From an uncultured Muribaculaceae bacterium (GTDB taxonomy: Bacteria; Bacillota_I; Bacilli_A; RF39; UBA660): a stretch of DNA of 64,000 nt. Below, piece by piece: positions 38,447 through 59,236 of the stretch. The notes below the pieces were generated by a model. It searched no databases. It saw nothing but the letters and a program-made list of their open reading frames with translations, and was not told the DNA's origin. The position numbers and the translations under genes were made by a program. Numbering within the stretch: position 1 is the stretch's first letter; every line of letters begins with the position of its first letter. Location of the stretch: NCBI GenBank assembly GCA_964397485.1, contig CAYNHT010000001.1, forward strand, positions 273,190 to 337,189, in the 5' to 3' direction.

Positions 38447-38547
38447 ATAACCACCATATAAATTATATCATATTATCGGCTTTATATTAAATAAAAAAAT
38501 GTGATGGTTTAGTTTTCACATTTTCTTTTTTATTATATTTTATCTAA

Positions 38548-38593
38548 TGGTTTCCTATACAGGATTCGAATCTATGACCCGCTGATTAAGAGT
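38548..38593 (-). repeat. Degenerate copy of the tRNA-Lys 3' half; this is the left boundary of the island array.
   Basis: 'tggtttcctatacaggattcgaatctatgacccgctgattaagagtc' aligns with the 3' half of tRNA-Lys at 59066-59111. The T-stem pairing is degraded. Confidence 0.6.
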
Positions 38594-42458: not shown

Positions 42459-42469
42459 TTTATCACTCC

Positions 42470-43198: not shown

Positions 43199-43209
43199 TT
43201 TATCACCAC

Positions 43210-45963
43210 CTACATATATTTTTTAACGGTATTTATTATAAAATCTTTTATACTCTGAACTACACCTATTTTTTGTAAAAAGGGCAACTCTATTTCTTTA
43301 TTTATTTCACCAATAGGTATAACACCACTATACTCGAATTCTTCAATAAAGTCACTTAATTTTTCATAAGAAATATTATATTCTTTAGCCATTCTTTCTA
43401 TTTCTCTAACTCTTTCTTGAGTTAAGTGATTGTTATATGCTTCATCGATAGATTTATCCTTATCTAAGACTGGAACAACCTTATTTAGGAAATTTTTAAT
43501 AAGTTCAGATTTGAGTCTTAATTCCTCATTATCTGTTTTATCTATTTTATCCTCAATATCGTTTATATCTTTTCTCAATGTTTCTTTATTACTTAAATCT
43601 AAGTTTTTAATTAAATCTAAAATATATGAAACATTTATTTTGTCAGTGCGCATCAACTCAAGCTCAAAATCTATATCATCTAATATAGTTTCCTCATCTT
43701 TTTGAGCTTGTCTAGCTAAATACGTATACTTGCTCCTATAATCTTGATATTCTTGGCTTGATATTAAATTAACACTTGATTCAAAATTAAATTTTGGAAA
43801 AGTTTCTAATTTAACCAAAATTCTAGCAACTTCTCTAAATGCTAGGACAAATTCTCGTTTATCTTCTTCTCTTTCTAAATTATTAATACTGTCTAACGTT
43901 GGAGCTATCTTTTTAAGTTTAGATAAAGCTTTTTCAAATTGCTCTAAATATTCATCATAGTTTTTCATAAGAACAGTATCAACATTGTTAGTTTGAGAGA
44001 ATAAAGTAATAGCTTCGTCAACTGCTTTTTTTCCCGTTTGGTAGCAGATTATATTGCCATAAGGTTTTGTTGATAATTCCACTCTATTAGTACGAGAAAA
44101 GGCTTGAATTAAATTATGATTATTCAATTTTTTATCAACATATAATGTGTTTAATCTTTTTGAATCAAATCCCGTTAAAAACATATTAACGACTAAAAGG
44201 ATATCAATCTCACCACTCTTTACCTTTTTCGTTACATCTTTAAAGTAACTTTCAAAGGTATCTGTTGAGTAATTTCTATTAAAGAGTTTATTATAGTCCT
44301 TTATAATACGTTCTAAGCTATCTCTCGAATGCTCATCTCTTCCCTCAGAGTCTTCATTATTACCATAAGTAAAAATAGCGGATATTTTTAAATCTTGATT
44401 AATACTTTTAAACATATCATAGTACTTTACTAACATTGGAATGCTTTGAACTGCAAAAATAGCATTGTACATTCTGTTTCTTGTTTTGGTATTATGAATA
44501 TCTACTATATTATTTGCGATTATAGCAATTCTCTCATCTGCCATTAAAGCTTCTTCCGTATCAATAGCTTCTACCCTTTTATCTTCAAGTCCTTCTTTAT
44601 AATTTGTAGTACTAACATAGTCAACAGAGAAACCCAATACATTTTCGTCTTTTATTGCATCTTTTATTAGATATGTATGTAAACACTTTTCAAAGATATC
44701 CGCAGTTGTTCTTCCATCAATTGCTTTGTTTTCGATAAATCTTGGAGTACCAGTAAACCCAAAATATTGGGCTTTTTCAAAATGAACATTTATGACCTTA
44801 TGCATTTCTCCAAACTGTGATCTATGACATTCATCAATAATGAATATTACTTTTTCATTTTTATATTTTTCTAATATACTGTTATATCTTGGATTTTTAA
44901 TAGCATTAGCCATTTTTTGAATAGTAGTTATAATTAAATTTTTGGCTGGATCTTCTATTTGTTTAACAAGCGTATCAGTTTTATCAGTTGTATCAACACA
45001 ACCAGGATCAAATTTATTAAATTCTTCTAAAGTTTGTCCATCTAAATCTTTTCTATCAACTAAGAAAAAAACCTTATTAATATTTGGCTCATCTTTTAAT
45101 AACTGACTTGTTTTAAAAGATGTTAATGTTTTACCAGAACCAGTTGTATGCCAAACATATCCGTTATTATTGGTTTCAGTAGCCCTATTTAATATTTCTT
45201 CTGTTGCATACACCTGATAAGGTCTCATAATCATTAAAGCCTTATCAGTTTCATTTAACACCATATATCTAGCTATCATTTTTGAAATATGACATTTATC
45301 TAAAAAATAAAATGCAAAGTCGCTTAAATTACTTATTCTTTCGTTTTTAACATCAGTCCAGTGAAATGTATGTGAAAAATTCAAATCACTATCACCATTG
45401 GAAAAGTACTTTGTATCTACTCCGTTGCTAATAACAAACAATTGAATATATCTATATAATCCTGTAAATGAATGTTTCCTATATCTTTGAATTTGGTTAA
45501 AAGCTTCTTTAAAATCTAATCCCCTTCTTTTTAATTCGATTTGAACTAAGGGAAGCCCGTTAATTAAAATGGTTACATCATATCGACTGGTATACTTACC
45601 AATAACAGTAGTTTGATTAGTAATTTGAAATAAATTTTTGCACCATTGTTTAGAATTAAACAACTCAATAAAAATAGTTTTCCCATTATCTCGGGTTATA
45701 CTTTGTAATTGTCTTAATTCTTTAGCACTATTAAAAACACCCTTACCAGAGATGATTGTCACTAATCTATCAAATTCCCTGTCTGACAATTCAATTCCAT
45801 CAAGTCTTTTTAAATTAAATTTGTTAACTTGTTTTCTAAAGTTATCAAGAAGATTTTGTTCATTATTTATAATTACTCTTTCGTAACCTTGTTTTACTAA
45901 CTGTTCAATTAAATTATACTCTAATCTTGCTTCGCTTTCATAAGCACTACTCATATTAATCAC
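43210..45963 (-). CDS. hsdR: Type I restriction enzyme R subunit.
   Basis: 'VWHTTGSGKTLTSF' Walker A and 'IIDECHRSQ' DEAH-like box. 917 aa. Confidence 0.9.
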   Translation of the reverse strand: MINMSSAYESEARLEYNLIEQLVKQGYERVIINNEQNLLDNFRKQVNKFNLKRLDGIELSDREFDRLVTIISGKGVFNSAKELRQLQSITRDNGKTIFIELFNSKQWCKNLFQITNQTTVIGKYTSRYDVTILINGLPLVQIELKRRGLDFKEAFNQIQRYRKHSFTGLYRYIQLFVISNGVDTKYFSNGDSDLNFSHTFHWTDVKNERISNLSDFAFYFLDKCHISKMIARYMVLNETDKALMIMRPYQVYATEEILNRATETNNNGYVWHTTGSGKTLTSFKTSQLLKDEPNINKVFFLVDRKDLDGQTLEEFNKFDPGCVDTTDKTDTLVKQIEDPAKNLIITTIQKMANAIKNPRYNSILEKYKNEKVIFIIDECHRSQFGEMHKVINVHFEKAQYFGFTGTPRFIENKAIDGRTTADIFEKCLHTYLIKDAIKDENVLGFSVDYVSTTNYKEGLEDKRVEAIDTEEALMADERIAIIANNIVDIHNTKTRNRMYNAIFAVQSIPMLVKYYDMFKSINQDLKISAIFTYGNNEDSEGRDEHSRDSLERIIKDYNKLFNRNYSTDTFESYFKDVTKKVKSGEIDILLVVNMFLTGFDSKRLNTLYVDKKLNNHNLIQAFSRTNRVELSTKPYGNIICYQTGKKAVDEAITLFSQTNNVDTVLMKNYDEYLEQFEKALSKLKKIAPTLDSINNLEREEDKREFVLAFREVARILVKLETFPKFNFESSVNLISSQEYQDYRSKYTYLARQAQKDEETILDDIDFELELMRTDKINVSYILDLIKNLDLSNKETLRKDINDIEDKIDKTDNEELRLKSELIKNFLNKVVPVLDKDKSIDEAYNNHLTQERVREIERMAKEYNISYEKLSDFIEEFEYSGVIPIGEINKEIELPFLQKIGVVQSIKDFIINTVKKYM

Positions 45964-46370: not shown

Positions 46371-46461
46371 ATACAAAAAAGATTACAATTTTTTGCAATC
46401 CTTCTAATTTCATATTTGGTGCCATTATAGAATTCAGCCCTATGACTCACTTATTAAGAGT
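46371..46461. repeat. Island-boundary module copy 1: A-run/hairpin/T-run terminator plus a degenerate tRNA-Lys 3'-half copy (46427-46461).
   Basis: 'aaaaaagattacaattttttgcaatccttctaatttcatatttggtgccattatagaattcagccctatgactcacttattaagagtg'. Confidence 0.55.
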
Positions 46462-46966: not shown

Positions 46967-47410
46967 TTATTTTTTTGAACTCAAAATTGATAATCTGACA
47001 ATGAGAGTTAAAAGCATTAATTGAAATAGAAACGTAAATATATATATTGATTCTCGCAAAATTAATAAAGAATCTTTAAGCTCTGACGGAATTTTTATGT
47101 CAAAATTAAAGACACCTAGTAAAAACACGAGGAATGTAAATTTAACCATATTATTAAAATACATTAGAAACACTTCATACAAATCCGATTTAAAGTTATA
47201 AAATTTTGTTATCAAAGGTTTGGCTGTTATTCTAAAAGTTATTAAGAATGGAGTCATTATTAATATAAATTCAAAAATTGTATCTAAATCAACTGAAAAG
47301 AAACTCATAAAATTATCACTTACGCTAAAAATAAGCGACAAAATAAAACTAACAAAAATATATTTATATACACCTGTCACTTTATACATTTTTTCTAAAA
47401 CTTTATGCAT
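46967..47410 (-). CDS. Small polytopic membrane protein (partner of the upstream 277-aa protein).
   Basis: Four TM helices. The start overlaps the stop of the upstream gene. Confidence 0.45.
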   Translation of the reverse strand: MHKVLEKMYKVTGVYKYIFVSFILSLIFSVSDNFMSFFSVDLDTIFEFILIMTPFLITFRITAKPLITKFYNFKSDLYEVFLMYFNNMVKFTFLVFLLGVFNFDIKIPSELKDSLLILRESIYIFTFLFQLMLLTLIVRLSILSSKK

Positions 47411-48236
47411 ATGCACCACCTTTTGCATGTGCAACGTCACTTAAATTATCAATAATCATTTCACTACCATGAGAAGTAATTTCAACATTTAAAATAATAT
47501 CATCCGCCGTTTCATCTATAATGTTAATCATTTTTGTCTGCTCCTTACCACCACGAGCATATTTACAATTTACTCTAAGTTTTTTCAAGTTATTTGTTTC
47601 TTGGTGTAAATCAACAAGAGTTTTTAATAATGCTTTTTTTGAGTTTCCAGTAGAATCTCCAGAAAACCATCTACTATTGATTGTAAAATTACATTCTTCT
47701 GCTTCAAAAAAATTAAGAGTACTATTAATGCCTTTTACTATATTTTCGAAAGATGGTTCGTCAAAGTCACAATTAATTTTTTTTGAGTTAATTTCCATTG
47801 AAATTATTTCTGAACTTTCAAGAAATGGAATTCTTGCCATATCAGACAAGTCTTGCGCAAATGAAAATGTAATATCAGGTCCAAATACTTTATTAAGAGT
47901 TCTTTCCATAGCTTTGATTTTAACGCCAGCATGATTATATTCCATAAAAGCCTCTATTCTATCCGGCCTTCTAACCAATAACACTGTTGATAATTCTGCT
48001 ACTTTTTCATTTATTTCTCTATAATCATTTCCATAAACAGGTTTTATTTCACGATCATATGCAAATTGTATTAGCATATCACGATCTTTTTCTTCAAATT
48101 TATTTATTATAACTCCCCCATTATTATAGTAGTTAACGTTACGTTCTTCCTGCTCCTTTCCAAATATACTTCTCAAATTAATGAAACTTTCTCCTTCAAG
48201 CGCAAGTATATACTTTTTTATTCTTAAACTAGCCAT
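47403..48236 (-). CDS. Hypothetical cytoplasmic protein (277 aa).
   Basis: No recognisable motif. Co-oriented and overlapping with the downstream TM protein. Confidence 0.5.
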   Translation of the reverse strand: MASLRIKKYILALEGESFINLRSIFGKEQEERNVNYYNNGGVIINKFEEKDRDMLIQFAYDREIKPVYGNDYREINEKVAELSTVLLVRRPDRIEAFMEYNHAGVKIKAMERTLNKVFGPDITFSFAQDLSDMARIPFLESSEIISMEINSKKINCDFDEPSFENIVKGINSTLNFFEAEECNFTINSRWFSGDSTGNSKKALLKTLVDLHQETNNLKKLRVNCKYARGGKEQTKMINIIDETADDIILNVEITSHGSEMIIDNLSDVAHAKGGAYA

Positions 48237-48470: not shown

Positions 48471-48540
48471 ATAAAAAAAAGATTGTGAATCCTCACAATT
48501 TTTTAATTTCATATTTGTACGTATAATCTACGTATTTTTT
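48471..48540. repeat. Island-boundary module copy 2 (terminator hairpin without a tRNA fragment).
   Basis: 'aaaaaaaagattgtgaatcctcacaattttttaatttcatatttg' plus a second hairpin 'tacgtataatctacgta' and a T-run. Confidence 0.5.
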
Positions 48541-48616: not shown

Positions 48617-49798
48617 TTAAAGGGTGTCATTCCAATAATCAATAACGAACCTATTTACCTCTTTAATTTTTTTCTTGCTTTCCTTGTTTTTAAAATTATA
48701 ATGAAATTTTGGTAAAACATTTTCTCTAACTTCTAGTTTAAACTTCCAACCATCTTCATATTTTCTAGGAAAGTTATCTAGTTTAGTTCTATCATATTTT
48801 GATATTTTTTCTGCTCTGCTAATAAGTCTAGTAAAAGAAAAATTATATTTAAAAGGATGATTTGTCTCATGGTGATGGACTATTTGATTTGTTGGAACGC
48901 CTAATGTCTTTGGAATAAATTGAGCGAAATATTTAGTTCTTTCTTTTTTACATGTACAAAATAATTTTTGTATTTCGTCTGAAGTAATTTCATCATTAAA
49001 TAAAACTAGATTTCTTGAAGATACTACTTGAAACATATTAAGCCATTTTACTTCAGTATCATTATTAATGTTTATTATTTGCTTATTATTGTTTCTAGGA
49101 TACATCTTTTTATCATATAAGATTATAAGTTTAGTTGGTGAAACCGGGAAAAATATTACAATTCCAATTGAAGTCAAACCAACATTGTAAATGCAAAAAT
49201 TATTATAATGTATTATTGGATTGTCACTTGTTATAAGTTTGCTCTTACAAGTATAATTTATTATTAGCAGTTCTAAATCTACAATATATTTCCCCAATTC
49301 TTTATCAGCTAATTCTAAACACATCTCTGGAATTTTATTTAATTTTTCTTTTAAAAAGACGTCTTTGATTTTTTGTTTTTCGCTATCACTTAAACTATCA
49401 AATTTATTTCCATATTTCATTTGAACAGCAACATCAATTGTCTTCCAAGCCATTTCTTTAACTTGTGTTACTCTGGTAAGTGTTCTGTTTTTTTGAAATA
49501 GTATAAACTGCTTTATTTTATTTATTTCATTAATGGTGGGGTAATAAATAGTATTGCCATTAATTTTATTTAATACGCTAGCCCATTCTCCTTCCAAACT
49601 CGATAATTTTCTTTCCCAAATTTCATCTGTTCCATAATAATAATTTTCGTAACATTGGTTCATGTATGGAACATTACTTATTATTTTTTCATTTGAAATA
49701 TTTAGGATACTAATTTGCTTTTTATAATTTGAAAAATATTTTAAATAGAATTGTGGAACATAATGTTGCTTTTTTCTTTTGTTCGACAATTTTACCAC
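48617..49798 (-). CDS. DUF4238-like protein.
   Basis: N-terminal 'HYVPQFYLKYF' resembles the DUF4238 signature. 393 aa. Confidence 0.4.
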   Translation of the reverse strand: MVKLSNKRKKQHYVPQFYLKYFSNYKKQISILNISNEKIISNVPYMNQCYENYYYGTDEIWERKLSSLEGEWASVLNKINGNTIYYPTINEINKIKQFILFQKNRTLTRVTQVKEMAWKTIDVAVQMKYGNKFDSLSDSEKQKIKDVFLKEKLNKIPEMCLELADKELGKYIVDLELLIINYTCKSKLITSDNPIIHYNNFCIYNVGLTSIGIVIFFPVSPTKLIILYDKKMYPRNNNKQIININNDTEVKWLNMFQVVSSRNLVLFNDEITSDEIQKLFCTCKKERTKYFAQFIPKTLGVPTNQIVHHHETNHPFKYNFSFTRLISRAEKISKYDRTKLDNFPRKYEDGWKFKLEVRENVLPKFHYNFKNKESKKKIKEVNRFVIDYWNDTL

Positions 49799-50040: not shown

Positions 50041-50125
50041 AAAAAAAGATTGTGATTTCTCACAATCCCTTATATTCATTGGTGTCCCGTATAGGATTCG
50101 AACCTATGACCCACTGATTAAGAGT
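50041..50125. repeat. Island-boundary module copy 3: terminator hairpin plus a well-preserved tRNA-Lys 3' half (50080-50125).
   Basis: 'aaaaaaagattgtgatttctcacaatc' then 'tggtgtcccgtataggattcgaacctatgacccactgattaagagt'. The reverse complement has an intact T-arm and acceptor strand. Confidence 0.7.
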
Positions 50126-50350
50126 TTTAAAAGGCACTTATTATGGTTTAGTATATAGTCATAAAAAATACTATATACTAACAATTATCAATGATAGTCA
50201 CAACACAAAATAATATATTTTATTATTTATTGATATATATTAGTCCGATTTAAGTCCGACTTATTATAAAAATAGTATCCAGGGGGTATCACTTCAAAAC
50301 AAATAATTTAGAATAAATGTTACTAGTGTAGTAGGATAATCGGCACCCAC

Positions 50351-51445
50351 TCAAAAATCATTTAGGCATTGTTGTGATTTTAATATATCATTTTCAAGTA
50401 AAACCAAAATATTATTAAGAGCTGTTTCAATTTTAATTTTATAATCGTTATCACTAAAGCTGAACTCTTGTTGAATTAAACCTAAAAACATTAATTTGTT
50501 ATTATAGTATCTTTCGTTGATACTATTTTTCATATCATAATGAAACATACAGTTCCTAAAGTTTCTATTTTTAAAATATTGTTGTCCTTTTATCAAGTCT
50601 TTATATTTTTTAATATCAAATGGGCAATTAACAAATATTTCATTATCACACATTTTAGAAATATCACTATGGATGGTGTCCCATATAATATAAGCAAGTC
50701 TATACCTTAATGTTGATTTGCTAGGTAGTGTATTACAAATTATTACTTGATAATAGTTAATTTTACATATCATATCTAATAGGCTTAAACCTATATTAAC
50801 ATCAATGTCATTTTTAAATAAACCATTACTATTTTTTGTTGTATTGAAATCTTTATATTTTACTAGAAAAGAATTAATATCGATATTGTCATTTTGTTCA
50901 ACAGAAAAGCATTTCATTAAAGCACTTAATACTTGTCCCTGTTCTTTTCCAAAATCAAATAAATGTTGATTTAATTCTTCTTTGTTTTTCAAAAGGGGCT
51001 TATATAATGTAGCGAATAGAAATGTGTTTCCTATCGGTTTAACATCAATGTAGTATACACCTAAATTATCTACTAAATCTTTTAAAAACCTATGTTCCTT
51101 TATAAATGAACTCATATTAATAAAATCTTCATGTGTTTGTTCATTTAATGTATTTATTTTTTCATATCTTTTTTCAAATGGTAATTCATCACTTTTAGTA
51201 CGACCTCTAATGGATTTAATGGCTTTTTTATACCTTAATTCTTTTCTTAATTCAACATTGTAATTTTCTTCTATATAATCAATTATTCCTAAATTTAATA
51301 AGTTTAAGTAATTAAACCAAAACATTGAAATAACAGCATTTTGGGTTTTAGAAATTGTAATGCACATTTTATAAATATCTTTAAGTTCTTCTTTAATAAG
51401 GATGTTAGTATTATCAGTTATATCAATTGTAAGTTCTATTTCCAT
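50351..51445 (-). CDS. Hypothetical protein with a C-terminal R-N-x-x-x-H (HEPN-like) motif.
   Basis: 364 aa; 'FRNCMFH'. Second gene of a two-gene operon. Confidence 0.5.
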   Translation of the reverse strand: MEIELTIDITDNTNILIKEELKDIYKMCITISKTQNAVISMFWFNYLNLLNLGIIDYIEENYNVELRKELRYKKAIKSIRGRTKSDELPFEKRYEKINTLNEQTHEDFINMSSFIKEHRFLKDLVDNLGVYYIDVKPIGNTFLFATLYKPLLKNKEELNQHLFDFGKEQGQVLSALMKCFSVEQNDNIDINSFLVKYKDFNTTKNSNGLFKNDIDVNIGLSLLDMICKINYYQVIICNTLPSKSTLRYRLAYIIWDTIHSDISKMCDNEIFVNCPFDIKKYKDLIKGQQYFKNRNFRNCMFHYDMKNSINERYYNNKLMFLGLIQQEFSFSDNDYKIKIETALNNILVLLENDILKSQQCLNDF

Positions 51446-51499
51446 TAAATTCCCCCTTAATTATTTTAAATATGTTAGTTTTAATTTGTATATACAAAA

Positions 51500-52750
51500 T
51501 TATTTTATATGCTTTTTATCATAATATAAATTATAATTTAATCGTTCCTTAATAGTCTTTTGTGAAACACCAATTTTATTATATAAATAACCAAGAAGTA
51601 AATCTTCTAAAAAATATGAAAACCTAAATAGTTCATCATTTTCCATCTTCTTTAATGGTTGAGAATGGTGATTAAAATAATTCCTACCATCAGCAATTTT
51701 TCTTGATATAGTGTGTATCCTTGTCTTTTTAAATCCCCATATATAATTCAGATTTTTAATCATACTTTCAATTCTATCTGAAAGAGTTATACCAAAACCA
51801 GGTTTTCCATTATCAATCCAAACTTGTTTTGCATTAACATTGTCATATTCTTTTGACATATATTCTATTATTTGATTACAATTTAAAAATCTATTCATTC
51901 TTGATGTTTCTTTTTCTATCATATCTAAGTAAATATCAAATATTGGAGTTATATCTTTAAAAACAACTAAAAATTGTTCATATATAAGTTTAAAATCATT
52001 TTCCAAATCTTCTAATGTCAATACAAATTGTTCATATTCATGTTGTAAAAATTCGTTTTTGTAATCTTTATCTTCAAAGTAAGTTAAATTCATAAACAAA
52101 ATATTATTATCATTTATTTTAATTTCTTTAATTCCAATTATTCTTTTTGAAATTATTCCTATAAAACATTTTAAAGCCCATACATCTTGTATTGTGTTTT
52201 GTAATGTCTGTTTGTTCCTATATTCGATTGTAAAACTCACTCTTTTTTTACATTTATATATTGAGTGTCCATGTGTTGTCAAATTTCCTATAAGTATTGT
52301 AAGTTTATAATCATTAAAATTAAATTCGTTATGTTTATACTTAAATATTGGATTCAAATTTTCGCCATAGTCATAAAAAGGACTTATTGAAAAATTTTCT
52401 AAATCATAGTATTCAAAATTAATTGATTTAATCTTTTTGTTCTTTTTAGAAGTATATTTCATTCCTTCAACAAACATATCAATCTTAAAAGTCATTGAAA
52501 ATAATTCAGTTGCTCCATTTGCAGAACTAGAACTACTTACTAAGTTAAAAAATGTAATGTTCCTACCTTCAATTTTTCCATTTACAATTGGAAATGAGTT
52601 TTTTAGTTTTAAATATGTATCTCTGTCAACACCATCTATTAATTGAAGTATTAATTGATTATTTTTATTTACTAATAAAGCCGAATATTCTTTATTTAAT
52701 AATGATATTTTAAGATTATTATTGTTATATTTTTCTAATAATTCATTCAT
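51500..52750 (-). CDS. Hypothetical protein with a C-terminal R-N-x-x-x-H (HEPN-like) motif.
   Basis: 416 aa; 'GRNYFNHH'. First gene of the operon, 55 nt upstream of the 364-aa gene. Confidence 0.5.
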   Translation of the reverse strand: MNELLEKYNNNNLKISLLNKEYSALLVNKNNQLILQLIDGVDRDTYLKLKNSFPIVNGKIEGRNITFFNLVSSSSSANGATELFSMTFKIDMFVEGMKYTSKKNKKIKSINFEYYDLENFSISPFYDYGENLNPIFKYKHNEFNFNDYKLTILIGNLTTHGHSIYKCKKRVSFTIEYRNKQTLQNTIQDVWALKCFIGIISKRIIGIKEIKINDNNILFMNLTYFEDKDYKNEFLQHEYEQFVLTLEDLENDFKLIYEQFLVVFKDITPIFDIYLDMIEKETSRMNRFLNCNQIIEYMSKEYDNVNAKQVWIDNGKPGFGITLSDRIESMIKNLNYIWGFKKTRIHTISRKIADGRNYFNHHSQPLKKMENDELFRFSYFLEDLLLGYLYNKIGVSQKTIKERLNYNLYYDKKHIK

Positions 52751-52884
52751 AAATAATCACCCTATAAATATTATAACATACATTGTAAAGTTCATTTACC
52801 TATTACTTTACATTTTAATAAAAACCACCTATATTTTCACACACTCAATAAAAAAAATAGCATGACAACAAAAGCAAAAAATCA

Positions 52885-53094
52885 CTATTTTATTATAGTG
52901 ATTAAATCTCCAGGTTCGCAATTTAAATGATTACAAAATTCTATTATGTATTTAAACGAAATCGATTTTGTTTCTCCTCTAATAATTTTGTTTAAATTTC
53001 TTGAAGTAATATTCATTTGTTGACATAACCAATATTTTGTTTTTCCATTTTTTTCTAATAATTCAACTATATTTAATTTTATCATTACCAACAC
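52885..53094 (-). CDS. XRE/Cro-type HTH regulator.
   Basis: 'TKYWLCQQMNITSRNLNKIIRGE' is an HTH_3 motif. Confidence 0.6.
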   Translation of the reverse strand: MLVMIKLNIVELLEKNGKTKYWLCQQMNITSRNLNKIIRGETKSISFKYIIEFCNHLNCEPGDLITIIK

Positions 53095-53192
53095 TTCCTT
53101 ATAGAAATATTGTAACTGTAATACAATTTATAAATAAGATACTTGCATTACCCTTATTTTTAGAATATAATATAAATGGAAGGAGAGTAAAA

Positions 53193-53642
53193 ATGAAAAT
53201 ATTAAAATACCTAATGATTTGTTTTAGTGTTTTATTTGTCTTAACAGGCTGCACTAATAATAAAAAAGAAGTAATTACTTTAAATAAAGACAACATAGAA
53301 AAATATTTTATTATTACAAATAGTATTGATGATTATTCTGTTGATACAAGCAGAACAATTGTTGGAAATACTTATAGAGGATATGCTACACTAAAAATTA
53401 CTTTAAAACCTAAATACACCATTTCTGTTAATGATGTTGTTATTAAAGGTGAAGTAAAATTGTCAGAAGTTGTATGGTCATCTTCATATAATCCTATGGT
53501 TTCATTTGAAATTCAGCTTGATAAAGATGGGAATGGAGAATATACTAAAAACTTAACTGCTTCTCAAAGTATTATTAGACCAGAAAAGCCAAGTGTTTAT
53601 GAAATAAATTTTACTGAAATAAGTGGAAGTATTGAGAAATAA
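53193..53642 (+). CDS. Lipoprotein of unknown function.
   Basis: RBS 'ggaaggagag'. 'MKILKYLMICFSVLFVLTGC' is a lipobox. Confidence 0.55.
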   Translation: MKILKYLMICFSVLFVLTGCTNNKKEVITLNKDNIEKYFIITNSIDDYSVDTSRTIVGNTYRGYATLKITLKPKYTISVNDVVIKGEVKLSEVVWSSSYNPMVSFEIQLDKDGNGEYTKNLTASQSIIRPEKPSVYEINFTEISGSIEK

Positions 53643-53803
53643 TAAAACATTAAAAAGTTACTAAAATAACTTTTTTTATTTGTTATGCCTTTTAACAAGT
53701 GATTGATGCAACCAAGTAATATGATAAACTAAAATAAAAAACAAAAGAAAGTTAATCAAATTAACCTTCTTTTTCAGATTTCAGACAGTCAGATTATGTA
53801 CCC

Positions 53804-54859
53804 TTAGTCTGAACTTCTGATTTCTGAATCCCTTATATATTCTTCTTTCAATTCCCAATTCCAACATTTATTTTTCTGAAAAGGTTTTTTGCAAACTATT
53901 TTCCTTGCTTTTTCAATAGATAATCTTTCAAAGCCACTTATATCTGCATTATCTAATATCTCTTTCATAGGTGCAGTATGATTATTAATAGAAGATAGAT
54001 AATCTACTAACCATTGTTTAGCATTTATCGTTGTAGAGTCGTTATCATAGGTAAATAAGCCGTCTATATTTAATGGTTCTCTTTCTTCAAGCCATGCAAT
54101 ACCTTTATCAGTTATTTCAAAAACATATTCCTTTAGGTTCTGTTCACTCGAATAATTACCCTTGATAGGACATAATAACCTTTGTTTTTCATTATCAGGG
54201 TTTCTTGTAATGCCTAAAACAACTCTAGCAGCTGAAGCAAATCCAGCCGAACCCATAGTTTTATATAGTGCTTTAGTATTACTTTTATTCATGTGCATTA
54301 CCCCAATAATAGCGATTTCAAAGTATCTAGCAATTAAACTTAATGGAGTTAATATATCATACACTTGTTTATATTTATCAATGTCAGTTCCATTCATATA
54401 ACTTGTTAAAGGGTCAATAACAATTAGTTTTGGTTGTATCTCGATAATCTTATCTATCAAATTATTTATATCACTTAAATCCAGCCCATTTTCTATACTA
54501 CTATCAATGTAGAAAACATTATTTACATCAGCACCACTATCCTCCAATCTATAAATTGTTATCTGTTCTGGGTCATCTTCAAGATTTTGAAATAATATCT
54601 TTTGTGGTTCTAATACTTGGCTATCAAAAGGAAACGATATACCATTAGATAATCTTGAAGTTATATCACATGTAACAAAACTCTTTCCAAGTCCTGCATC
54701 ACCGATTAATAGGGTTAGATACCCTATTGGTATTTTGCCATTCCACAACCATTTTAACTCCTTCTTTTGAACATTAGCAAAGCATTTAATAACTTGCTCT
54801 TTTTTCAATAAATCTTCTTTAATTTTCTTTTTTATTTCTTCACTAGTTAATTTTTCCAT
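53804..54859 (-). CDS. RecA-fold AAA ATPase (RepA/AAA_25-like replication protein of mobile elements).
   Basis: Walker A 'GDAGLGKSF', Walker B 'LIVIDPLTSY'. RBS 'aaggaga'. Confidence 0.6.
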   Translation of the reverse strand: MEKLTSEEIKKKIKEDLLKKEQVIKCFANVQKKELKWLWNGKIPIGYLTLLIGDAGLGKSFVTCDITSRLSNGISFPFDSQVLEPQKILFQNLEDDPEQITIYRLEDSGADVNNVFYIDSSIENGLDLSDINNLIDKIIEIQPKLIVIDPLTSYMNGTDIDKYKQVYDILTPLSLIARYFEIAIIGVMHMNKSNTKALYKTMGSAGFASAARVVLGITRNPDNEKQRLLCPIKGNYSSEQNLKEYVFEITDKGIAWLEEREPLNIDGLFTYDNDSTTINAKQWLVDYLSSINNHTAPMKEILDNADISGFERLSIEKARKIVCKKPFQKNKCWNWELKEEYIRDSEIRSSD

Positions 54860-54864
54860 TTCAA

Positions 54865-55053
54865 TTATTCTCCTTTATTTCTATTTTCTTTTAACCAATT
54901 TTCTATGTCTTGTTTATCAAACATAATCTTTTTACCAATTCTAAAATATGGTATTTCGCTAGAACGAATTAACTTTCTAACAAATGCTTCACTAATATGT
55001 AAATAGATAGCAACTTCTTTTACATTAAAAACATCTCTAGCCAATATCGGCAC
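54865..55053 (-). CDS. Excisionase-like small HTH (HTH_17) protein; the true start is probably the TTG at 55042-55044.
   Basis: 'VKEVAIYLHISEAFVRKLIRSSEIPYFRIGKKIMFDKQDIENWL' is the Xis/MerR-like pattern. Confidence 0.6.
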   Translation of the reverse strand: MPILARDVFNVKEVAIYLHISEAFVRKLIRSSEIPYFRIGKKIMFDKQDIENWLKENRNKGE

Positions 55054-55320
55054 CTCCTAACTGTATTCTTGCATTTTTTTAGTTACACTCTTGGCAACAA
55101 GCATACTCATTTTATACTAGAGGCAATTGCTTGTTCAAGCAATTTTAGTGAGGTTTTTCAATTGCTTTTGATTGTGTCGTTAATAAAAATTATTAACTTT
55201 TTTAGTGTCCAATTGTCTATTTTAATTTTTATTTAAAATACTATTGACATCTTGTCCAACTGTGTGCGATACTGTCATCAGAACACACAAGTGGAGTTCA
55301 AAAGAAAGGAAGTTAAAGTT

Positions 55321-56031
55321 ATGTCAACCAATACAAACAAAGTAAATCTAAAGTATCAATTATTTGCAGATAGGCTTATAGAATTAAGGAATGAAAGAAA
55401 ATTGACCCAAGATGAAGTATCAAAAGGAATAGGAATTAGTAAATCTTCAATTCAAAAGTATGAAGGTATGACACGATTTCCACAAGGTTACGACTTAATA
55501 GAAATAGCCAATTTCTTTGAAGTATCAGTTGAATATTTACTTGGTAAAAGTGAATATAAAAAAAACCAATACACTAGTCTAAGTGAACTTGGTTTGAATG
55601 ATAGAGCAATAGATACTTTAATAAAAATGAAACAAGAAGTTTATAAAAATGGCAAGTTGGATTATAAACCCTATATGTTCTTAAATGCTCTAAATTTACT
55701 GCTTGATATAGATAACAAAAGATATATTTATAAGATAGGTAAAATGCTAATTCAAAAAAGAGCTGAAGACCAATTTAAAAAGCGAAACAACGAAGAATTA
55801 GAAACATATCAATATAACTTGTTTAGATTAAACAATATGTTTGATAGATTTTTTAAAGAAAATTACGATAAAGTCGATTGTAGTTTCATTAATGAAATAG
55901 AAAGCGAAAAAGAAATAAAAAATTTCTTAACACAAGTTAATATATTAGATAATGATATGGTAAAAAATTGGCAAGATTACTTATTAACACCAATACAAAA
56001 AAAATTACTTGAAAATAAAGATAGTGAATAA
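55321..56031 (+). CDS. cI-like XRE HTH repressor with a C-terminal extension.
   Basis: 'KLTQDEVSKGIGISKSSIQKYEGMTRFPQGYDLIEIANFFEVSVEYLLG'. Divergent from the xis-like gene. Confidence 0.65.
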   Translation: MSTNTNKVNLKYQLFADRLIELRNERKLTQDEVSKGIGISKSSIQKYEGMTRFPQGYDLIEIANFFEVSVEYLLGKSEYKKNQYTSLSELGLNDRAIDTLIKMKQEVYKNGKLDYKPYMFLNALNLLLDIDNKRYIYKIGKMLIQKRAEDQFKKRNNEELETYQYNLFRLNNMFDRFFKENYDKVDCSFINEIESEKEIKNFLTQVNILDNDMVKNWQDYLLTPIQKKLLENKDSE

Positions 56032-56036
56032 AAAAA

Positions 56037-56097
56037 CTCTCTTGCTACTAACAAGAGAGAGAGTCACACAAAAACTTGGACAGCCTTTGTGTGACTC
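56037..56097 (+). terminator. Two tandem hairpins between the repressor and the integrase. They lack a strong T-run, so they may be a terminator or a regulatory structure.
   Basis: 'ctctcttgctactaacaagagagag' and 'gagtcacacaaaaacttggacagcctttgtgtgactc'. Confidence 0.35.
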
Positions 56098-56146
56098 CAT
56101 TATAACAGATTATTTAGAAAAATAAAAGAAATGGAGAAAAAATAAA

Positions 56147-57280
56147 ATGAGTGTTAAATTAATTGATAAAAATAAATATATGATTGAAGCCTTTATCGGT
56201 TATGATAGTAAAGGCAAAAAAATAAGACAATATAAAACTTTCAATGGTACAGAAAGACAAGCAAAAGTTATGGAAAACGAAATGATACAAAAGTATAAAA
56301 ACCAAGTTCTTAATGATATTGATTATACAAAAATCACTTTTGAAGAATTAAGCAAAATTTATATGGAAAGACATGCTAAAAATCTAGCCCCTACAACCTA
56401 TATAGGTTATTCGAAAATGTTAGAAGTTATAAATGATAATTTTGGCAAAAGAAAGTTAACCAATTTAAACCCTTTAATACTAGAAGATTTTTATTGTAAA
56501 TTAAGAGAAAGGCGACAACCTAAAAAACTAACTGAAAATACAATATTACATTATTATGTTTTAATTGGTGCAATACTTAATAAAGCCAAAAGATGGAAGA
56601 TAATAAGCGATAACCCAAATGAAGCAATTGATAGACCTAAAAAGGAAAAGAAAGAATCCAAATATTACAATGTTGAAGAAACCAAGCAGTTGTTAAAAGC
56701 ATTAGAATGTGAACCTTTAAAATATCAGACTTTAATTAGATTAGCAATTGATAGTGGTGCTAGAGTTGGTGAAATATTAGGATTAGAATGGGACGATATT
56801 AATTTTAATTTGGGTTATATTAGTATTAATAAAGTTATATATGCAATTAAGGGTGGAGTTAGAGAAAAAGACAAACCAAAAAATAATAGTTCTATAAGAC
56901 CAATAACATTAATGGAAGAAACTTTAGATTTATTAAAACAATTTAAAGAACAACAAGAAGAAACAAAAATTAAATTAGGTATAAAATGGTTAGGTTGCAA
57001 AAAAGTATTTACTTCCGAAGAAGGTTGGTATATGCACCCTTGCACACCTAGACATATTCTAGGAAAGATAATTAATAAATATGATTTACCAAAAATCAAT
57101 TTTCATTCTTTAAGGCATACTTCGGCATCATTGCAGATAGCATTAGGCATTCACATGAAAATCATTAGTAAAAGACTTGGTCACAGTAGCAGTAGCACCA
57201 CAGATATGATTTATAGCCATGTTTCAAGCACTCTGCAAAGCGAAGTAACTAATAAAATGGGGAAACTACTAAATAGTTAA
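56147..57280 (+). CDS. int: Tyrosine site-specific integrase.
   Basis: C-terminal 'HSLRHTSASLQIALGIHMKIISKRLGHSSSSTTDMIYSHV' carries the R..H..R..Y catalytic residues. An N-terminal SAM-like domain is present. Confidence 0.9.
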   Translation: MSVKLIDKNKYMIEAFIGYDSKGKKIRQYKTFNGTERQAKVMENEMIQKYKNQVLNDIDYTKITFEELSKIYMERHAKNLAPTTYIGYSKMLEVINDNFGKRKLTNLNPLILEDFYCKLRERRQPKKLTENTILHYYVLIGAILNKAKRWKIISDNPNEAIDRPKKEKKESKYYNVEETKQLLKALECEPLKYQTLIRLAIDSGARVGEILGLEWDDINFNLGYISINKVIYAIKGGVREKDKPKNNSSIRPITLMEETLDLLKQFKEQQEETKIKLGIKWLGCKKVFTSEEGWYMHPCTPRHILGKIINKYDLPKINFHSLRHTSASLQIALGIHMKIISKRLGHSSSSTTDMIYSHVSSTLQSEVTNKMGKLLNS

Positions 57281-57303
57281 AACAAAAGAAAATGGCTATC
57301 AGA

Positions 57304-58989
57304 TTAGCCATTTTTATTTTCGTTTTGTATTGCTATTGCAGTAATAAGTCCAAAATATAAAACTAGTAATTTTTCCACATTACCATAATTAAAATCTTTC
57401 ATTTTTAGATTTTTAAAATGTGCTAAATTATTTCTAATTCCCTCGCCTACTTCATTATCATCATTAATTAAATAAAACCTTAACAACTTTATATGATTAA
57501 TTCCTATAATATCATTTATTATAGAATTATCTTTATTCAATAAAACTCCCAAAGAAATAGAATTTTCGTTTATATACCCATTTTCATCGACCTTGCTTTT
57601 ATATATTAATCTCAATGATTTTTCAATCAAACCACATGTAAGCATTTCAATTGAATAAGCAATAGCACTTAATTGAATAGATAATTTTTGTTCTTTATCA
57701 CTTTTAATAATAGAAACATAAAGCAGAATAAGGTTAAATAACATTTCGTTATTTTCAATTATTTCATTTTCCACAAAATTAACAGTGTGATAATTGAATA
57801 CTTTGGTAAGTCTTCTAGTTACTTCAGAAAACAACATATTTGTGAGTTCATCATTATTTAAAATGTAATTTACTTTTAACATATGGTGTTGTAGTTCTAT
57901 ACCTAGAGTGGTCTGTATACTTGGTGTAAATAACTTGTTTGTTTTAACATTTGCAATAGAAACAAAATCAGTAATACTTGGTTTGCTATCTCTAACTAAT
58001 TGGTCAAAGAAATGAGTAAATGTTTTACCATCAGAGTAATTAGTTAAGTATACCAACATCTTTGCTGCTTTTGTTCCAATATCGGATTTTTCTATCATAT
58101 CAACATAACTTTTAATGTTTATTTCGTATGAAAATGATTGCCCATGATTTTGTAAATAATCATCAAGTAAATTGTTCTGTTCATCTAATTTAAATTGCCA
58201 TTCTTTTGCTTTTGAATGCTTTATTGTATCTAAAAATCGAAATAATTTAACAACATAACTTTGACTTATAATAGCATCCTCAACTTTTAAATCTTTCGTT
58301 TGTTCTTCAATATAATTTATGAGAAATGTAACTATTTCTTCAAATTTATTACTAAACCATGCTTGATTTTGTAAAGAAACTAATATATCAAATATATCTT
58401 CCAATCTAAATGTAACTAATTTATTTAATGTGTCATTTGAAAAGAACAGATCTGCTAAATCATTGTTTTCTTTTACAACATTGATAAATCTATCAAAACT
58501 GTCTATTAACAAATGAGAACAATGAGATATTAAGCATTTCCATGTATCTTTATCGATTCCACTTCTATACTTCAAACAATATGTAACAGTTTCAATTTTT
58601 ATATCAATATCATGATGAGTGACATCATCTTCGTATTCGCATATTATTTGAATATTATCATTAATGAAACTAAATATATCTTTTCGTTTATAGTTGTTTA
58701 AGATACCATTAAAAGTAGTAATTATATTACTAAACTCTTGTTTCATTTCATCTTTTACAATCTCAACATAAGTATCGTATTCAACTAATTTATACAAAAA
58801 AATATAATCGATATAGTTTTCTAAACTAGTTATGGAATAATCATTAATAGAGTTATAATAATTAATAATTATACTATTATTTTCTAGTAATTTTGTTATT
58901 TCAATTCCTGTTGCCCAATCATCATAAGTATATCTTCTTAACCCAATGTGTATTTTATTGTCATCTAATAATTTAAATATATTTCCCAT
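57304..58989 (-). CDS. Large hypothetical protein (561 aa) with a C-terminal R-N-x-x-x-H (HEPN-like) motif.
   Basis: 'EGIRNNLAHFKN' lies near the C-terminus. Positioned between int and tRNA-Lys. Confidence 0.5.
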   Translation of the reverse strand: MGNIFKLLDDNKIHIGLRRYTYDDWATGIEITKLLENNSIIINYYNSINDYSITSLENYIDYIFLYKLVEYDTYVEIVKDEMKQEFSNIITTFNGILNNYKRKDIFSFINDNIQIICEYEDDVTHHDIDIKIETVTYCLKYRSGIDKDTWKCLISHCSHLLIDSFDRFINVVKENNDLADLFFSNDTLNKLVTFRLEDIFDILVSLQNQAWFSNKFEEIVTFLINYIEEQTKDLKVEDAIISQSYVVKLFRFLDTIKHSKAKEWQFKLDEQNNLLDDYLQNHGQSFSYEINIKSYVDMIEKSDIGTKAAKMLVYLTNYSDGKTFTHFFDQLVRDSKPSITDFVSIANVKTNKLFTPSIQTTLGIELQHHMLKVNYILNNDELTNMLFSEVTRRLTKVFNYHTVNFVENEIIENNEMLFNLILLYVSIIKSDKEQKLSIQLSAIAYSIEMLTCGLIEKSLRLIYKSKVDENGYINENSISLGVLLNKDNSIINDIIGINHIKLLRFYLINDDNEVGEGIRNNLAHFKNLKMKDFNYGNVEKLLVLYFGLITAIAIQNENKNG

Positions 58990-59065
58990 TTTACACTTCC
59001 CTCGTTATTTAAATTATATCATAAAAAAAGAGTTTCTATTTTAGTAGAACTCTTTATATACATTT

Positions 59066-59141
59066 TGGTGTCCCCAGCAGGACTCGAACCTGCGACAATC
59101 TGATTAAGAGTCAGGAGCTCTACCAACTGAGCTATGGAGAC
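59066..59141 (-). tRNA. tRNA-Lys(CTT).
   Basis: Cloverleaf with anticodon loop 'ctcttaa' and T-arm gcagg/cctgc. CCA is encoded. Confidence 0.85.
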
Positions 59142-59186: not shown

Positions 59187-59226
59187 GATTAAGAGTCAGT
59201 TGCTCTACCAGCTGAGCTAACGAGAC
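59187..59226 (-). pseudogene. Orphan 5' half of a tRNA-Lys(CTT) (acceptor 5' strand through the anticodon loop).
   Basis: The reverse complement 'gtctcgttagctcagctggtagagcaactgactcttaatc' is complementary (acceptor and anticodon stems) to the 3'-half copy at 50080-50125. Confidence 0.65.
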
Positions 59227-59236
59227 ATATATTTAA

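What the first reader, a model, noticed from the sequence alone, without database searches (positions are those of the whole stretch)
57304..58989. 561-aa orphan protein between the integrase and tRNA-Lys with a C-terminal 'IRNNLAH' HEPN-like motif: candidate single-gene abortive-infection effector
It occupies the classic 'moron'/cargo slot next to the attachment site of the integrated element, opposite in orientation to int. It has no recognisable enzymatic motif apart from the RNxxAH motif about 45 residues from the C-terminus. The large N-terminal region could be a sensor domain.
Basis: inference. Interest (0 to 1): 0.65.

Follow-up and report, generated by a model that had tools for sequence, protein, structure and literature searches.

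The report
Mobile-element HEPN RNase, likely phage defence
The gene is real and belongs to an uncharacterised family of about 550-residue bacterial proteins whose C-terminal end is a predicted RNA-cutting (HEPN) domain. The family rides on prophages, plasmids, restriction-modification operons and integrated islands, so it is a credible but untested single-gene anti-phage suicide nuclease of a familiar kind.

Summary
The 561-aa ORF (57304-58989, minus strand) and its IRNNLAH motif are real. The gene lies between the integrase and tRNA-Lys, inside a ~9-kb integrated island. It is not an orphan: an exhaustive profile search found 268 clusters of full-length relatives of about 550 aa. In 119 aligned members G515, R519 and H524 are invariant, N520 is present in 118, and an upstream E456-x3-R460 motif is near-invariant. 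These are the two sequence hallmarks of catalytic HEPN RNases. Some members hit Pfam DUF4209 (the C6orf70/ERMARD-type HEPN) across exactly this region, and UniRef names Bacillus members DUF4209 proteins. The AlphaFold model is confident (pLDDT 95) and all-helical: a ~410-aa N-terminal domain with no significant fold match, followed by the HEPN bundle. Relatives sit between hsdS and hsdR in Type I R-M operons, after Type III R-M plus Abi_C, next to a Cap4 nuclease, on a Bacillus conjugative plasmid, and at two different positions in related Lachnospiraceae phages. The window's island also carries ApeA. Best reading: a latent, self-contained HEPN RNase used for abortive infection. Function is inferred, not shown, and structural confirmation of the HEPN fold failed. 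It is a new member of a known kind.

The parts
57304..58989 (-). Coding sequence of the 561-aa protein (stop codon included)
   Evidence: ORF list. Exactly this protein is called on 20 public contigs, all in the same context.
57763..58989 (-). N-terminal all-alpha domain (aa 1-409), the candidate sensor/regulatory domain
   Evidence: The AlphaFold2 model has pLDDT 95.1 and consists of helices throughout. Foldseek gave only non-significant alpha-solenoid matches in PDB (E>=0.15) and nothing in BFVD. Conserved patch at G283, T316, H317 (N in this protein), D341, F354, T355. hhalign found no internal HEPN duplication.
57310..57762 (-). C-terminal HEPN domain of the DUF4209/C6orf70 type (aa 410-560). 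Proposed helices: H1 410-429, H2 437-467, insert 468-496, H3 497-524, H4 535-560.
   Evidence: This is the most conserved part of the family. PF13910 aligns to the equivalent stretch in members, e.g. P0022 residues 445-535 to profile positions 3-87 of 89. Helix order comes from the model and was read against the HEPN description in PMC3710099.
57610..57624 (-). E456-K-S-L-R460, the Ex3[KR] motif of HEPN helix 2
   Evidence: Translation. E in 117 of 119 members (D in 2); R in 108 of 119 (K in 5). The motif is defined in PMC3710099.
57418..57447 (-). G515-E-G-I-R519-N520-N-L-A-H524, the Rx4H catalytic motif with the polar residue after R
   Evidence: Translation. G515, R519 and H524 are invariant; N520 is present in 118 of 119 members.
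57288..57315 (.). Bidirectional intrinsic-terminator-like hairpin shared by the convergent integrase gene and the target gene
   Evidence: Terminator scan found a site on both strands, 2 in total against 0.3 expected.
58996..59018 (-). GAGGGAAG Shine-Dalgarno sequence 6 nt before the ATG, and a TATAAT hexamer upstream
   Evidence: Read directly from the sequence. This is a consensus match only; the scan did not list a full promoter here.
59023..59055 (-). Hairpin plus T-run directly after tRNA-Lys, separating the tRNA transcript from the target gene
   Evidence: Read directly from the sequence.
59066..59141 (-). tRNA-Lys(CTT), the integration site (tRNA-proximal junction of the island)
   Evidence: ARAGORN and Rfam.
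50070..50125 (.). Copy of the 3' half of a tRNA-Lys up to the anticodon loop (shared core GATTAAGAGT), marking the distal junction of the ~9-kb island that holds the target
   Evidence: Direct-repeat families D1/D2 and the alignment.
56147..57280 (+). Tyrosine integrase of the island, convergent with the target
   Evidence: Pfam Phage_integrase 1e-22 and Phage_int_SAM_3. A member of its 90%-identity cluster comes from a 'Bacilli bacterium' MAG.

Best explanation
The gene encodes a stand-alone conflict nuclease with two parts: a ~410-residue all-helical N-terminal domain and a single C-terminal HEPN RNase domain of the DUF4209/C6orf70 type. It is cargo of a ~9-kb integrative element inserted in tRNA-Lys of an uncultivated Bacilli bacterium.

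Proposed mechanism (inferred):
1. The protein is made constitutively from its own promoter and held inactive.
2. Because it has only one HEPN domain, it must pair as a dimer or higher oligomer so that two R519/H524 motifs, assisted by E456, R460 and N520, form a metal-independent RNase site.
3. The N-terminal helical domain senses a phage-derived cue, a protein or a nucleic acid, or the loss of a partner.
4. This releases the RNase, which cuts host tRNA (the anticodon loop is the most common target in this class), mRNA or rRNA. Translation stops and the infection aborts.

Shown here: the ORF; family-wide invariance of the HEPN hallmarks; a weak but consistent link to DUF4209; the helical model; carriage on mobile elements next to defence genes.

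Inferred: RNase activity, oligomerisation, the trigger, the substrate, and the anti-phage phenotype.
For: Family and conservation. There are 268 clusters of relatives, nearly all full-length. G515, R519 and H524 are invariant, N520 is present in 118 of 119, and E456 and R460 are near-invariant across sequences only 18-29% identical to the query. These match the two HEPN hallmarks given in PMC3710099: Rx4-6H with a polar residue after R, and an upstream Ex3[KR].

Link to DUF4209. Eight of 87 members hit PF13910, best E-value 6.8e-6; every other Pfam family was hit by one member only. The alignments span the ExxxR-to-RNxxAH stretch. UniRef names Bacillus members 'DUF4209 domain-containing protein'. 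PMC3710099 classes DUF4209/C6orf70 as a predicted active HEPN that 'occurs in R-M related operons'.

Structure. The model is confident (pLDDT 95.1, pTM 0.86) and its helix order is compatible with HEPN H1-H4.

Context in the window. The gene lies inside an island bounded by tRNA-Lys and a tRNA 3'-half copy. The island also carries ApeA. Beyond it lie two further island-like segments, one with DUF4238 and one with a Type I R-M system plus Abi_alpha.

Context of relatives:
- hsdM-hsdS-[gene]-hsdR on a mobilisable element
- in an operon with a Type I-like R-M system
- after a Type III R-M system plus Abi_C
- directly upstream of hsdM
- next to a Cap4 nuclease
- next to N6_N4 methylase and RhuM genes
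- on a Bacillus cereus conjugative plasmid
- after the holin-endolysin genes of a prophage, and inside the tail module of a related viral contig
- near Cas12a, AbiEii and MADS genes among the neighbours of 16 genome loci

No partner. There is no adjacent antitoxin ORF, tandem-repeat RNA or Rfam element.

Precedent. Single-protein HEPN defence nucleases work this way: DARNA/PD-T7-3 and HepS.
Against: There are no experimental data for any member.

The query itself does not hit PF13910 or any HEPN model even at E<=1; the link is transitive, through relatives. Most member hits fall below the Pfam gathering score (14-18 bits against 22.3).

The protein does not match any PADLOC v2 model; members give only weak hits to PDC-S39 (best 5e-4).

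Some loci have ordinary neighbours, for example L005 and the housekeeping genes.

This protein lacks two residues conserved in more than 90% of the family (H317 is N, N550 is T), so its activity or regulation may differ.
Confidence: 0.6

Rival explanations
1. A restriction-modification guard, like PrrC. The nuclease is kept silent by binding a Type I or Type III R-M complex. It fires when a phage anti-restriction factor disables that complex, and then cuts tRNA.
For: Several relatives sit inside or against R-M operons. One lies in the hsdS-hsdR gap, which from memory is where prrC sits. Others are in an operon with a Type I-like system, after a Type III system, or directly upstream of hsdM. 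PMC3710099 notes R-M association for the DUF4209 family. A Type I R-M system lies 11-19 kb away in the window.
Against: In the window the gene is not in an R-M operon, and the Type I system lies in a different island-like segment with its own embedded Abi_alpha gene. Many relatives, such as the prophage, plasmid and Cap4-adjacent copies, have no R-M neighbour. There is no ABC-ATPase-like domain as in PrrC: no P-loop or ATPase family was hit.
Confidence: 0.13
2. A mobile-element selfish or competition toxin rather than an anti-phage system. The HEPN RNase would stabilise the island or prophage (addiction), or act against competing elements or the host during induction.
For: The gene is carried almost always on mobile elements: an island, prophages, a plasmid, mobilisable elements. 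It sits at different positions in related phages, as expected of a free-moving moron. HEPN domains are common toxins of toxin-antitoxin systems (PMC3710099).
Against: No antitoxin candidate is adjacent: there is no small ORF, no MNT gene and no repeat RNA. Addiction normally needs one. The neighbours are mostly defence genes rather than maintenance genes.
Confidence: 0.12
3. A non-catalytic helical scaffold or nucleic-acid/nucleotide-binding protein in which the HEPN-like domain only binds a ligand. Alternatively, a dedicated RNA-processing enzyme with a housekeeping role.
For: The only fold matches are weak similarities to alpha-solenoid scaffolds. Some HEPN domains are non-catalytic (PMC3710099). 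The eukaryotic DUF4209 protein C6orf70 was predicted to have an RNA-metabolism role.
Against: Non-catalytic HEPN domains typically lose Rx4-6H; here R, N, H and the upstream E are invariant. The distribution is patchy and tied to mobile elements, and the neighbours vary. That is the opposite of a housekeeping gene.
Confidence: 0.07

Closest known systems
DUF4209 (PF13910) / C6orf70 (ERMARD)-type HEPN family, defined computationally by Anantharaman et al. 2013 (PMC3710099)
   Same: Same domain region and the same motifs (ExxxR ... G-x-N-x-R-N-x-x-A-H). Members of this family hit PF13910, and UniRef names some of them DUF4209 proteins. The R-M-linked context reported for the bacterial branch is also seen here.
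   Different: The query itself scores below detection against PF13910. The family pairs the domain with a specific ~410-aa N-terminal helical domain, not the TPR, WD40 or transmembrane architectures listed in 2013. I found no report of an experimentally studied bacterial DUF4209 protein.
DARNA (PD-T7-3), an ssDNA/SSB-activated HEPN tRNA anticodon nuclease (bioRxiv 10.64898/2026.02.22.705581)
   Same: A single-protein system of about 50-60 kDa, all-helical. It has one HEPN domain with Rx4H plus a large solenoid-like (Pds5-like) non-catalytic domain that senses the trigger, and it acts by abortive infection.
   Different: The domain order is reversed: HEPN is N-terminal in DARNA and C-terminal here. 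No sequence or PADLOC match was found. Oligomeric state, trigger and substrate are unknown here.
HepS, the solo HEPN abortive-infection protein of the Gifsy-1 prophage (PMC13043305)
   Same: Cargo of a prophage or mobile element, a single gene, constitutive and latent, with a canonical Rx4-6H motif. It is activated by a phage structural protein and cleaves tRNA anticodon loops.
   Different: HepS consists of a single HEPN domain, whereas this protein adds a ~410-aa N-terminal domain. No detectable sequence relationship.
PrrC / RloC anticodon nucleases (HEPN; PrrC is embedded in the Type Ic R-M locus, per my recollection and PMC3710099)
   Same: A C-terminal HEPN nuclease with a large N-terminal regulatory domain. 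Some relatives occupy the hsdS-hsdR slot of Type I R-M operons.
   Different: There is no ABC-ATPase-type N-terminal domain. The window copy is not in an R-M operon.
ApeA (HEPN_Apea plus ApeA_NTD1), which is encoded 4.5 kb away in the same island
   Same: A single-gene HEPN defence protein with an N-terminal regulatory domain and a C-terminal HEPN domain, carried as cargo of the same island.
   Different: A different HEPN family and a different N-terminal domain. The target hits neither ApeA Pfam model nor PADLOC PDC-S58.

Membership tests
HEPN superfamily | Rx4-6H motif with a polar residue (N/D/H) right after R | tested here: met
   R519-N520-N-L-A-H524. R and H are invariant and N is present in 118 of 119 relatives. 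Criterion taken from PMC3710099.
HEPN superfamily | Upstream conserved acidic residue, typically in an Ex3[KR] motif in helix 2 | tested here: met
   E456-K-S-L-R460. E in 117 of 119 members (D in 2), R in 108 and K in 5. It lies in the long helix 437-467 of the model. Criterion.
HEPN superfamily | Four-helix up-down bundle with an insert between helices 2 and 3 and the motif at the end of helix 3; structural similarity to solved HEPN domains | tested here: inconclusive
HEPN superfamily | Metal-independent RNase activity from a composite site formed by two HEPN domains | not testable with these tools
   There is only one HEPN domain per chain (hhalign of the N-terminal against the C-terminal part), so a homo-oligomer is implied. 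No multimer prediction or assay was possible.
DUF4209 (PF13910) / C6orf70-type HEPN | Match to the Pfam model PF13910 at or above its gathering score (22.3 bits) | tested here: inconclusive
   Query: no hit even at E<=1. Relatives: 8 of 87 hit at E<0.01, best 6.8e-6. The three inspected scored 14-18 bits and covered profile positions 2-87 of 89. UniRef labels Bacillus members DUF4209. Membership of the query is therefore transitive.
DUF4209 (PF13910) / C6orf70-type HEPN | Bacterial members occur in R-M related operons (PMC3710099, Table 1) | tested here: met
   Met for relatives. Not met for the window copy, which is solo in an island.
PrrC/RloC anticodon nucleases | N-terminal ABC-ATPase-like NTPase domain fused to the HEPN domain | tested here: not met
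   Neither the query nor 87 relatives hit any ATPase or P-loop family. The N-terminal domain is all-helical.
ApeA (PADLOC PDC-S58; Pfam ApeA_NTD1 + HEPN_Apea) | Matches to ApeA_NTD1 and HEPN_Apea | tested here: not met
   The target has no such hit, whereas the neighbouring ORF 51500-52750 hits both (1.9e-15 and 7.2e-10) and PDC-S58 (8e-21).
DARNA / PD-T7-3 | N-terminal HEPN domain (aa 1-159) followed by a C-terminal Pds5-like domain; match to the PADLOC model | tested here: not met
   The domain order is reversed. Neither the query nor its relatives gave a PADLOC hit to PD-T7-3.
HEPN toxin-antitoxin systems (HepT/MntA, RnlAB, AbiF with RNA antitoxin) | An adjacent cognate antitoxin gene or repeat RNA | tested here: not met
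   The gene is flanked by tRNA-Lys and the convergent integrase. There is no small ORF, no tandem repeats and no Rfam element.

The most novel reading that the evidence does not exclude
This ~550-aa family would be a distinct, widespread single-gene anticodon or mRNA nuclease defence system that is so far unnamed. Its large N-terminal helical domain would be a new kind of infection sensor that works in two modes: alone on prophages and islands, or as a PrrC-like guard wired into Type I/III restriction systems. As the bacterial branch of the DUF4209 domain, it would also give the first biochemical handle on the human protein ERMARD/C6orf70, which was predicted in 2013 to be an RNase but, to my knowledge, has not been tested.
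Probability: 0.3. Interest if true: 0.65.

Novelty: new member of a known kind. Interest (0 to 1): 0.42.

Why it matters
If confirmed, it adds a compact, single-gene HEPN defence nuclease that the PADLOC v2 models do not detect. It is common on prophages and islands of gut Clostridia and Bacilli.

It also offers a natural comparison: the same protein occurs alone and embedded in restriction-modification operons. That could show how latent suicide RNases are coupled to first-line defences.

It would provide a tractable bacterial model for the DUF4209 domain found in eukaryotic ERMARD. Practically, the family profile built here could be added to defence-annotation tools.

Tried and rejected
- **Direct family assignment of the query.** Pfam, NCBIfam, PADLOC, PHROGs and PDB sequences gave nothing.
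- **Word-indexed homologue search.** It returned two proteins with the full query and four short proteins with the C-terminal profile, so it was too insensitive to help.
- **Profile against PDB sequences.** No HEPN chain was found with either the full-length or the C-terminal profile.
- **Foldseek.** The full model against PDB gave only alpha-solenoid noise. The C-terminal model gave nothing significant; in hindsight my cut at residue 432 removed the likely helix 1. BFVD gave nothing.
- **Family consensus sequence against Pfam.** No hit.
- **The search for related loci with family alignments.** I replaced it with a degenerate-motif DNA scan: 16 of 28 loci were true members.
- **The 562-aa neighbour of the closest homologue as a paralogue.** Rejected.
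- **A second, cryptic HEPN in the N-terminal part.** Rejected.
- **An RNA antitoxin or tandem repeats.** None found.
- **A recurrent partner gene.** The ~300-350-aa upstream ORFs seen in three loci share no Pfam family; only one is Abi_C.
- **Close relatives in IMG/VR.** None found for P0001 or P0170. tblastn against GenBank phages found none.
Full report
**Observation.** The ORF at 57304-58989 on the minus strand is real: it starts with ATG and encodes 561 aa. IRNNLAH is encoded at 57418-57438, with R519 lying 42 residues from the C-terminus. The gene is convergent with a tyrosine integrase at 56147-57280 (Phage_integrase 1e-22). The two share a bidirectional terminator-like hairpin at 57288-57315. 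Its start lies 76 nt from tRNA-Lys(CTT) at 59066-59141. In that gap, read directly from the sequence, are the tRNA's hairpin and T-run, a TATAAT hexamer, and a GAGGGAAG ribosome-binding site 6 nt before the ATG. The query hits nothing in Pfam, NCBIfam, PADLOC, PHROGs or PDB sequences. In a single sequence the motif is weak evidence. In shuffles of this protein, Rx4-6H appears 60% of the time, R[NDH]xxxH 5.9% and RNxxAH 0.055%. An unconserved second Rx6H exists at R251.

**Not an orphan.** The word-indexed search found only the protein itself, on public contigs that all show the same context, and one 53% relative. A profile of those two proteins, run exhaustively against 1.84 billion representatives, found 268 clusters at E<=1e-3. 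Of these, 200 scored at E<=1e-10 and 81 at E<=1e-30. Nearly all are full-length proteins of 540-570 aa aligned end to end. This is a conserved two-part architecture, not a shared domain. Members are 18-29% identical to the query.

**What is conserved.** In 119 aligned members G515, R519 and H524 are invariant and N520 is present in 118. E456 is present in 117 (D in the other 2). R460 is present in 108 (K in 5). L484 and N550 are conserved in more than 90%. The family signature is EKxLRxxY ... TLGxLL ... IGxNYRNxLAH. The most conserved blocks are residues 441-460 and 501-520. A second conserved patch lies in the middle of the protein: G283, T316, H317, D341, F354 and T355. This protein has N at 317 and T at 550, so it belongs to a divergent sub-branch with its 53% relative, although the catalytic set is intact.

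**HEPN assignment.** Anantharaman et al. 2013 (PMC3710099) define the HEPN active site by two features. The first is Rx4-6H with a polar residue, mostly N, D or H, after the R. [quoted passage not shown] Both are met and family-invariant here. When 87 members were scanned against Pfam one by one, 8 hit PF13910 (DUF4209), best E-value 6.8e-6. One member hit HEPN_AbiA_CTD, and every other family was hit by a single member only. The DUF4209 alignments cover the whole 89-position model and map onto the ExxxR-to-RNxxAH stretch, for example P0022 residues 445-535 to profile positions 3-87. UniRef labels Bacillus cereus/thuringiensis members 'DUF4209 domain-containing protein'. The 2013 paper identifies DUF4209 as the C6orf70-type HEPN. 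It predicts the family to be catalytically active, places it in 'Bacteria > Eukaryotes', and notes that it 'occurs in R-M related operons'. I therefore regard the C-terminal ~150 residues as a remote DUF4209-type HEPN domain, with confidence about 0.85. The query's own membership is transitive, because it does not hit the Pfam model itself.

**Setting in the window.** Four copies of the 3' half of a tRNA-Lys, each running up to the anticodon loop, lie at 38538-38593, 46406-46461, 50070-50125 and in the real tRNA at 59056-59111. All share the core GATTAAGAGT. I read this as successive insertions of three elements at one tRNA.
- The newest element, about 50126-59065, carries the target and the integrase. 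It also has an HTH_3 repressor-like gene, an HTH_17 excisionase-like gene and an AAA_25 replication-type ATPase. In addition it holds a small HTH_26 gene, a 201-aa ORF (called as 149 aa on public contigs), an ApeA gene (ApeA_NTD1 1.9e-15, HEPN_Apea 7.2e-10, PADLOC PDC-S58 8e-21) and a 364-aa unknown.
- The next segment has a DUF4238 gene.
- The third has a Type I R-M system with an Abi_alpha gene between hsdR and hsdM.

A member of the integrase's 90%-identity cluster comes from a 'Bacilli bacterium' MAG, and G+C is about 22-29%. No antitoxin-like ORF, tandem-repeat RNA or Rfam element adjoins the gene.

**Setting of relatives.**
- The 53% relative is followed by a Cap4-nuclease protein.
- P0006 follows a Type III methylase-helicase pair and an Abi_C protein, with a Schlafen/AlbA_2 ATPase upstream.
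- P0129, which is 861 aa with an extra C-terminal extension, overlaps the upstream gene in a Type I-like R-M operon.
- P0019 sits exactly between hsdS and hsdR on an element with a relaxase, an AAA_25 ATPase and an HTH_17 gene.
- Two Lachnospiraceae genomes have hsdM directly downstream.
- A Neisseriaceae copy is followed by N6_N4 methylase and RhuM genes, near an integrase.
- A Bacillus cereus copy lies on a 334-kb conjugative plasmid among IS4 elements and recombinases.
- The abundant Lachnospiraceae member P0170 lies directly after the holin-endolysin pair at the end of a prophage. In a related IMG/VR contig the same gene sits between the tape-measure region and the distal tail genes. The same gene at two positions in related phages is typical of a mobile moron.
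- A degenerate-motif scan of GTDB genomes returned 16 true members, nearly all Clostridia or Tissierellia, one locus with two tandem copies. Their 74 neighbouring ORFs include Type I and N4/N6 methylases, Cas12a, AbiEii, UvrD, MADS mad2, serine recombinases, Mob_Pre and IS110, together with ordinary metabolic genes.
- One locus, L005, looks unrelated to defence.

There is no constant partner gene. The ~300-350-aa upstream ORFs seen in three loci share no Pfam family.

**Mechanism.** The most likely reading (confidence about 0.6) is a self-contained latent HEPN RNase. The protein oligomerises through its HEPN domain so that two R519/H524 motifs, with N520, E456 and R460, form a metal-independent RNase site. 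The N-terminal helical domain holds the enzyme off and senses infection. Activation leads to cleavage of tRNA anticodon loops or other RNA, translation arrest and abortive infection. Every step after 'has an intact HEPN active-site signature and is mobile-element cargo among defence genes' is inference by analogy. The analogues are DARNA/PD-T7-3 (a HEPN domain plus a Pds5-like helical sensor, ssDNA/SSB-activated, cutting tRNA), HepS (a prophage solo HEPN triggered by a tail-tip protein) and ApeA.

**Rivals.** A PrrC-like guard of restriction systems is attractive for the operon-embedded relatives but not for this solo copy (about 0.13). A mobile-element addiction or competition toxin is weakened by the lack of an antitoxin (about 0.12). 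A non-catalytic or housekeeping role is contradicted by the invariant catalytic residues and the patchy, mobile distribution (about 0.07).

**Comparison and novelty.** The protein works like the known single-protein HEPN abortive-infection nucleases. By sequence it is a remote member of the DUF4209/C6orf70 HEPN family, which was catalogued computationally in 2013. It is not a member of ApeA, PrrC/RloC, DARNA or the HEPN toxin-antitoxin families; the defining features of each were tested and not met. The full-text library contains DUF4209 only in the 2013 paper, and no paper links ERMARD with HEPN. PADLOC v2 has no model that detects the family beyond weak PDC-S39 hits. I could not check newer DefenseFinder releases. 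I therefore rate it a new, untested member of a known kind. It is a good experimental candidate, with modest added interest from its dual solo/R-M-embedded contexts and the eukaryotic ERMARD connection. It would not surprise a specialist.

Noticed in passing
window 51500-52750 (-): A bona fide ApeA-type HEPN defence gene in the same island, 4.5 kb from the target: ApeA_NTD1 1.9e-15, HEPN_Apea 7.2e-10, PADLOC PDC-S58 8e-21. The island therefore carries two unrelated single-gene HEPN proteins.
   Followed up: partly
window 38538-38593, 46406-46461, 50070-50125, 59056-59111: Four copies of the 3' half of a tRNA-Lys, all ending at the anticodon-loop core GATTAAGAGT. They imply tandem accretion of three elements at one tRNA gene. 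The contents are int/ApeA/target, then DUF4238 with two unknown ORFs, then a Type I R-M system with an embedded Abi_alpha gene.
   Followed up: partly
window 59187-59228: An isolated 5' half of a tRNA-Lys (88% identical to the real one), with no 3' half, sits between tRNA-Lys and tRNA-Val. It looks like a leftover junction from an earlier rearrangement or excision. Unexplained.
   Followed up: no
window 39709-45963 (-): A Type I R-M operon (hsdR 43210-45963, hsdM 40896-42458, hsdS 39709-40896) has an Abi_alpha-domain gene (42470-43198) inserted between hsdR and hsdM. A 318-aa unknown ORF (38753-39709) abuts hsdS.
   Followed up: partly
window 48617-49798 (-): A DUF4238 protein (Pfam 2e-37) in the middle island segment. 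From memory, DUF4238 proteins are listed as a defence candidate from P2/P4 hotspots. PADLOC v2 gave no hit.
   Followed up: partly
window 50351-51445 (-), 47403-48236 (-), 46967-47440 (-): Three island ORFs (364, 277 and 157 aa) have no hit in Pfam or PADLOC. The 364-aa ORF lies directly downstream of ApeA on the same strand and could be its partner or another cargo gene.
   Followed up: partly
L049 5880-7559 versus L044/L046/L047 8001-9683: In related Lachnospiraceae phages the family gene occupies two different positions. In one viral contig it lies inside the tail module, between the tape-measure region and the distal tail genes. In the prophages it lies after the holin-endolysin pair. This suggests independent insertion of a mobile moron.
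   Followed up: partly
L025 4950-6656 and 6934-7998: Two family genes in tandem in one genome (RUG347, labelled 'uncultured proteobacterium'). The second runs off the fetched block.
   Followed up: no
P0129 and P0134 (861 aa); L009 7107-9692: Some family members carry an extra ~300-residue C-terminal extension with no Pfam hit. P0129 overlaps the upstream gene in a Type I-like R-M operon.
   Followed up: no
window 58039-58041 (N317) and 57340-57342 (T550), minus strand: The query lacks two residues conserved in more than 90% of the family: H317 is N and N550 is T. N517 is G. Its 53% relative keeps H317 but shares T550 and G517. The role of the mid-protein conserved patch (G283, T316, H317, D341, F354, T355) is unknown.
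   Followed up: partly
window 48474-48512 and 50041-50079: A 39-nt hairpin-containing repeat (82% identical) occurs once at 48474-48512 and once immediately before the tRNA 3'-half copy at 50070. It may be a terminator or part of a conserved island end.
   Followed up: no
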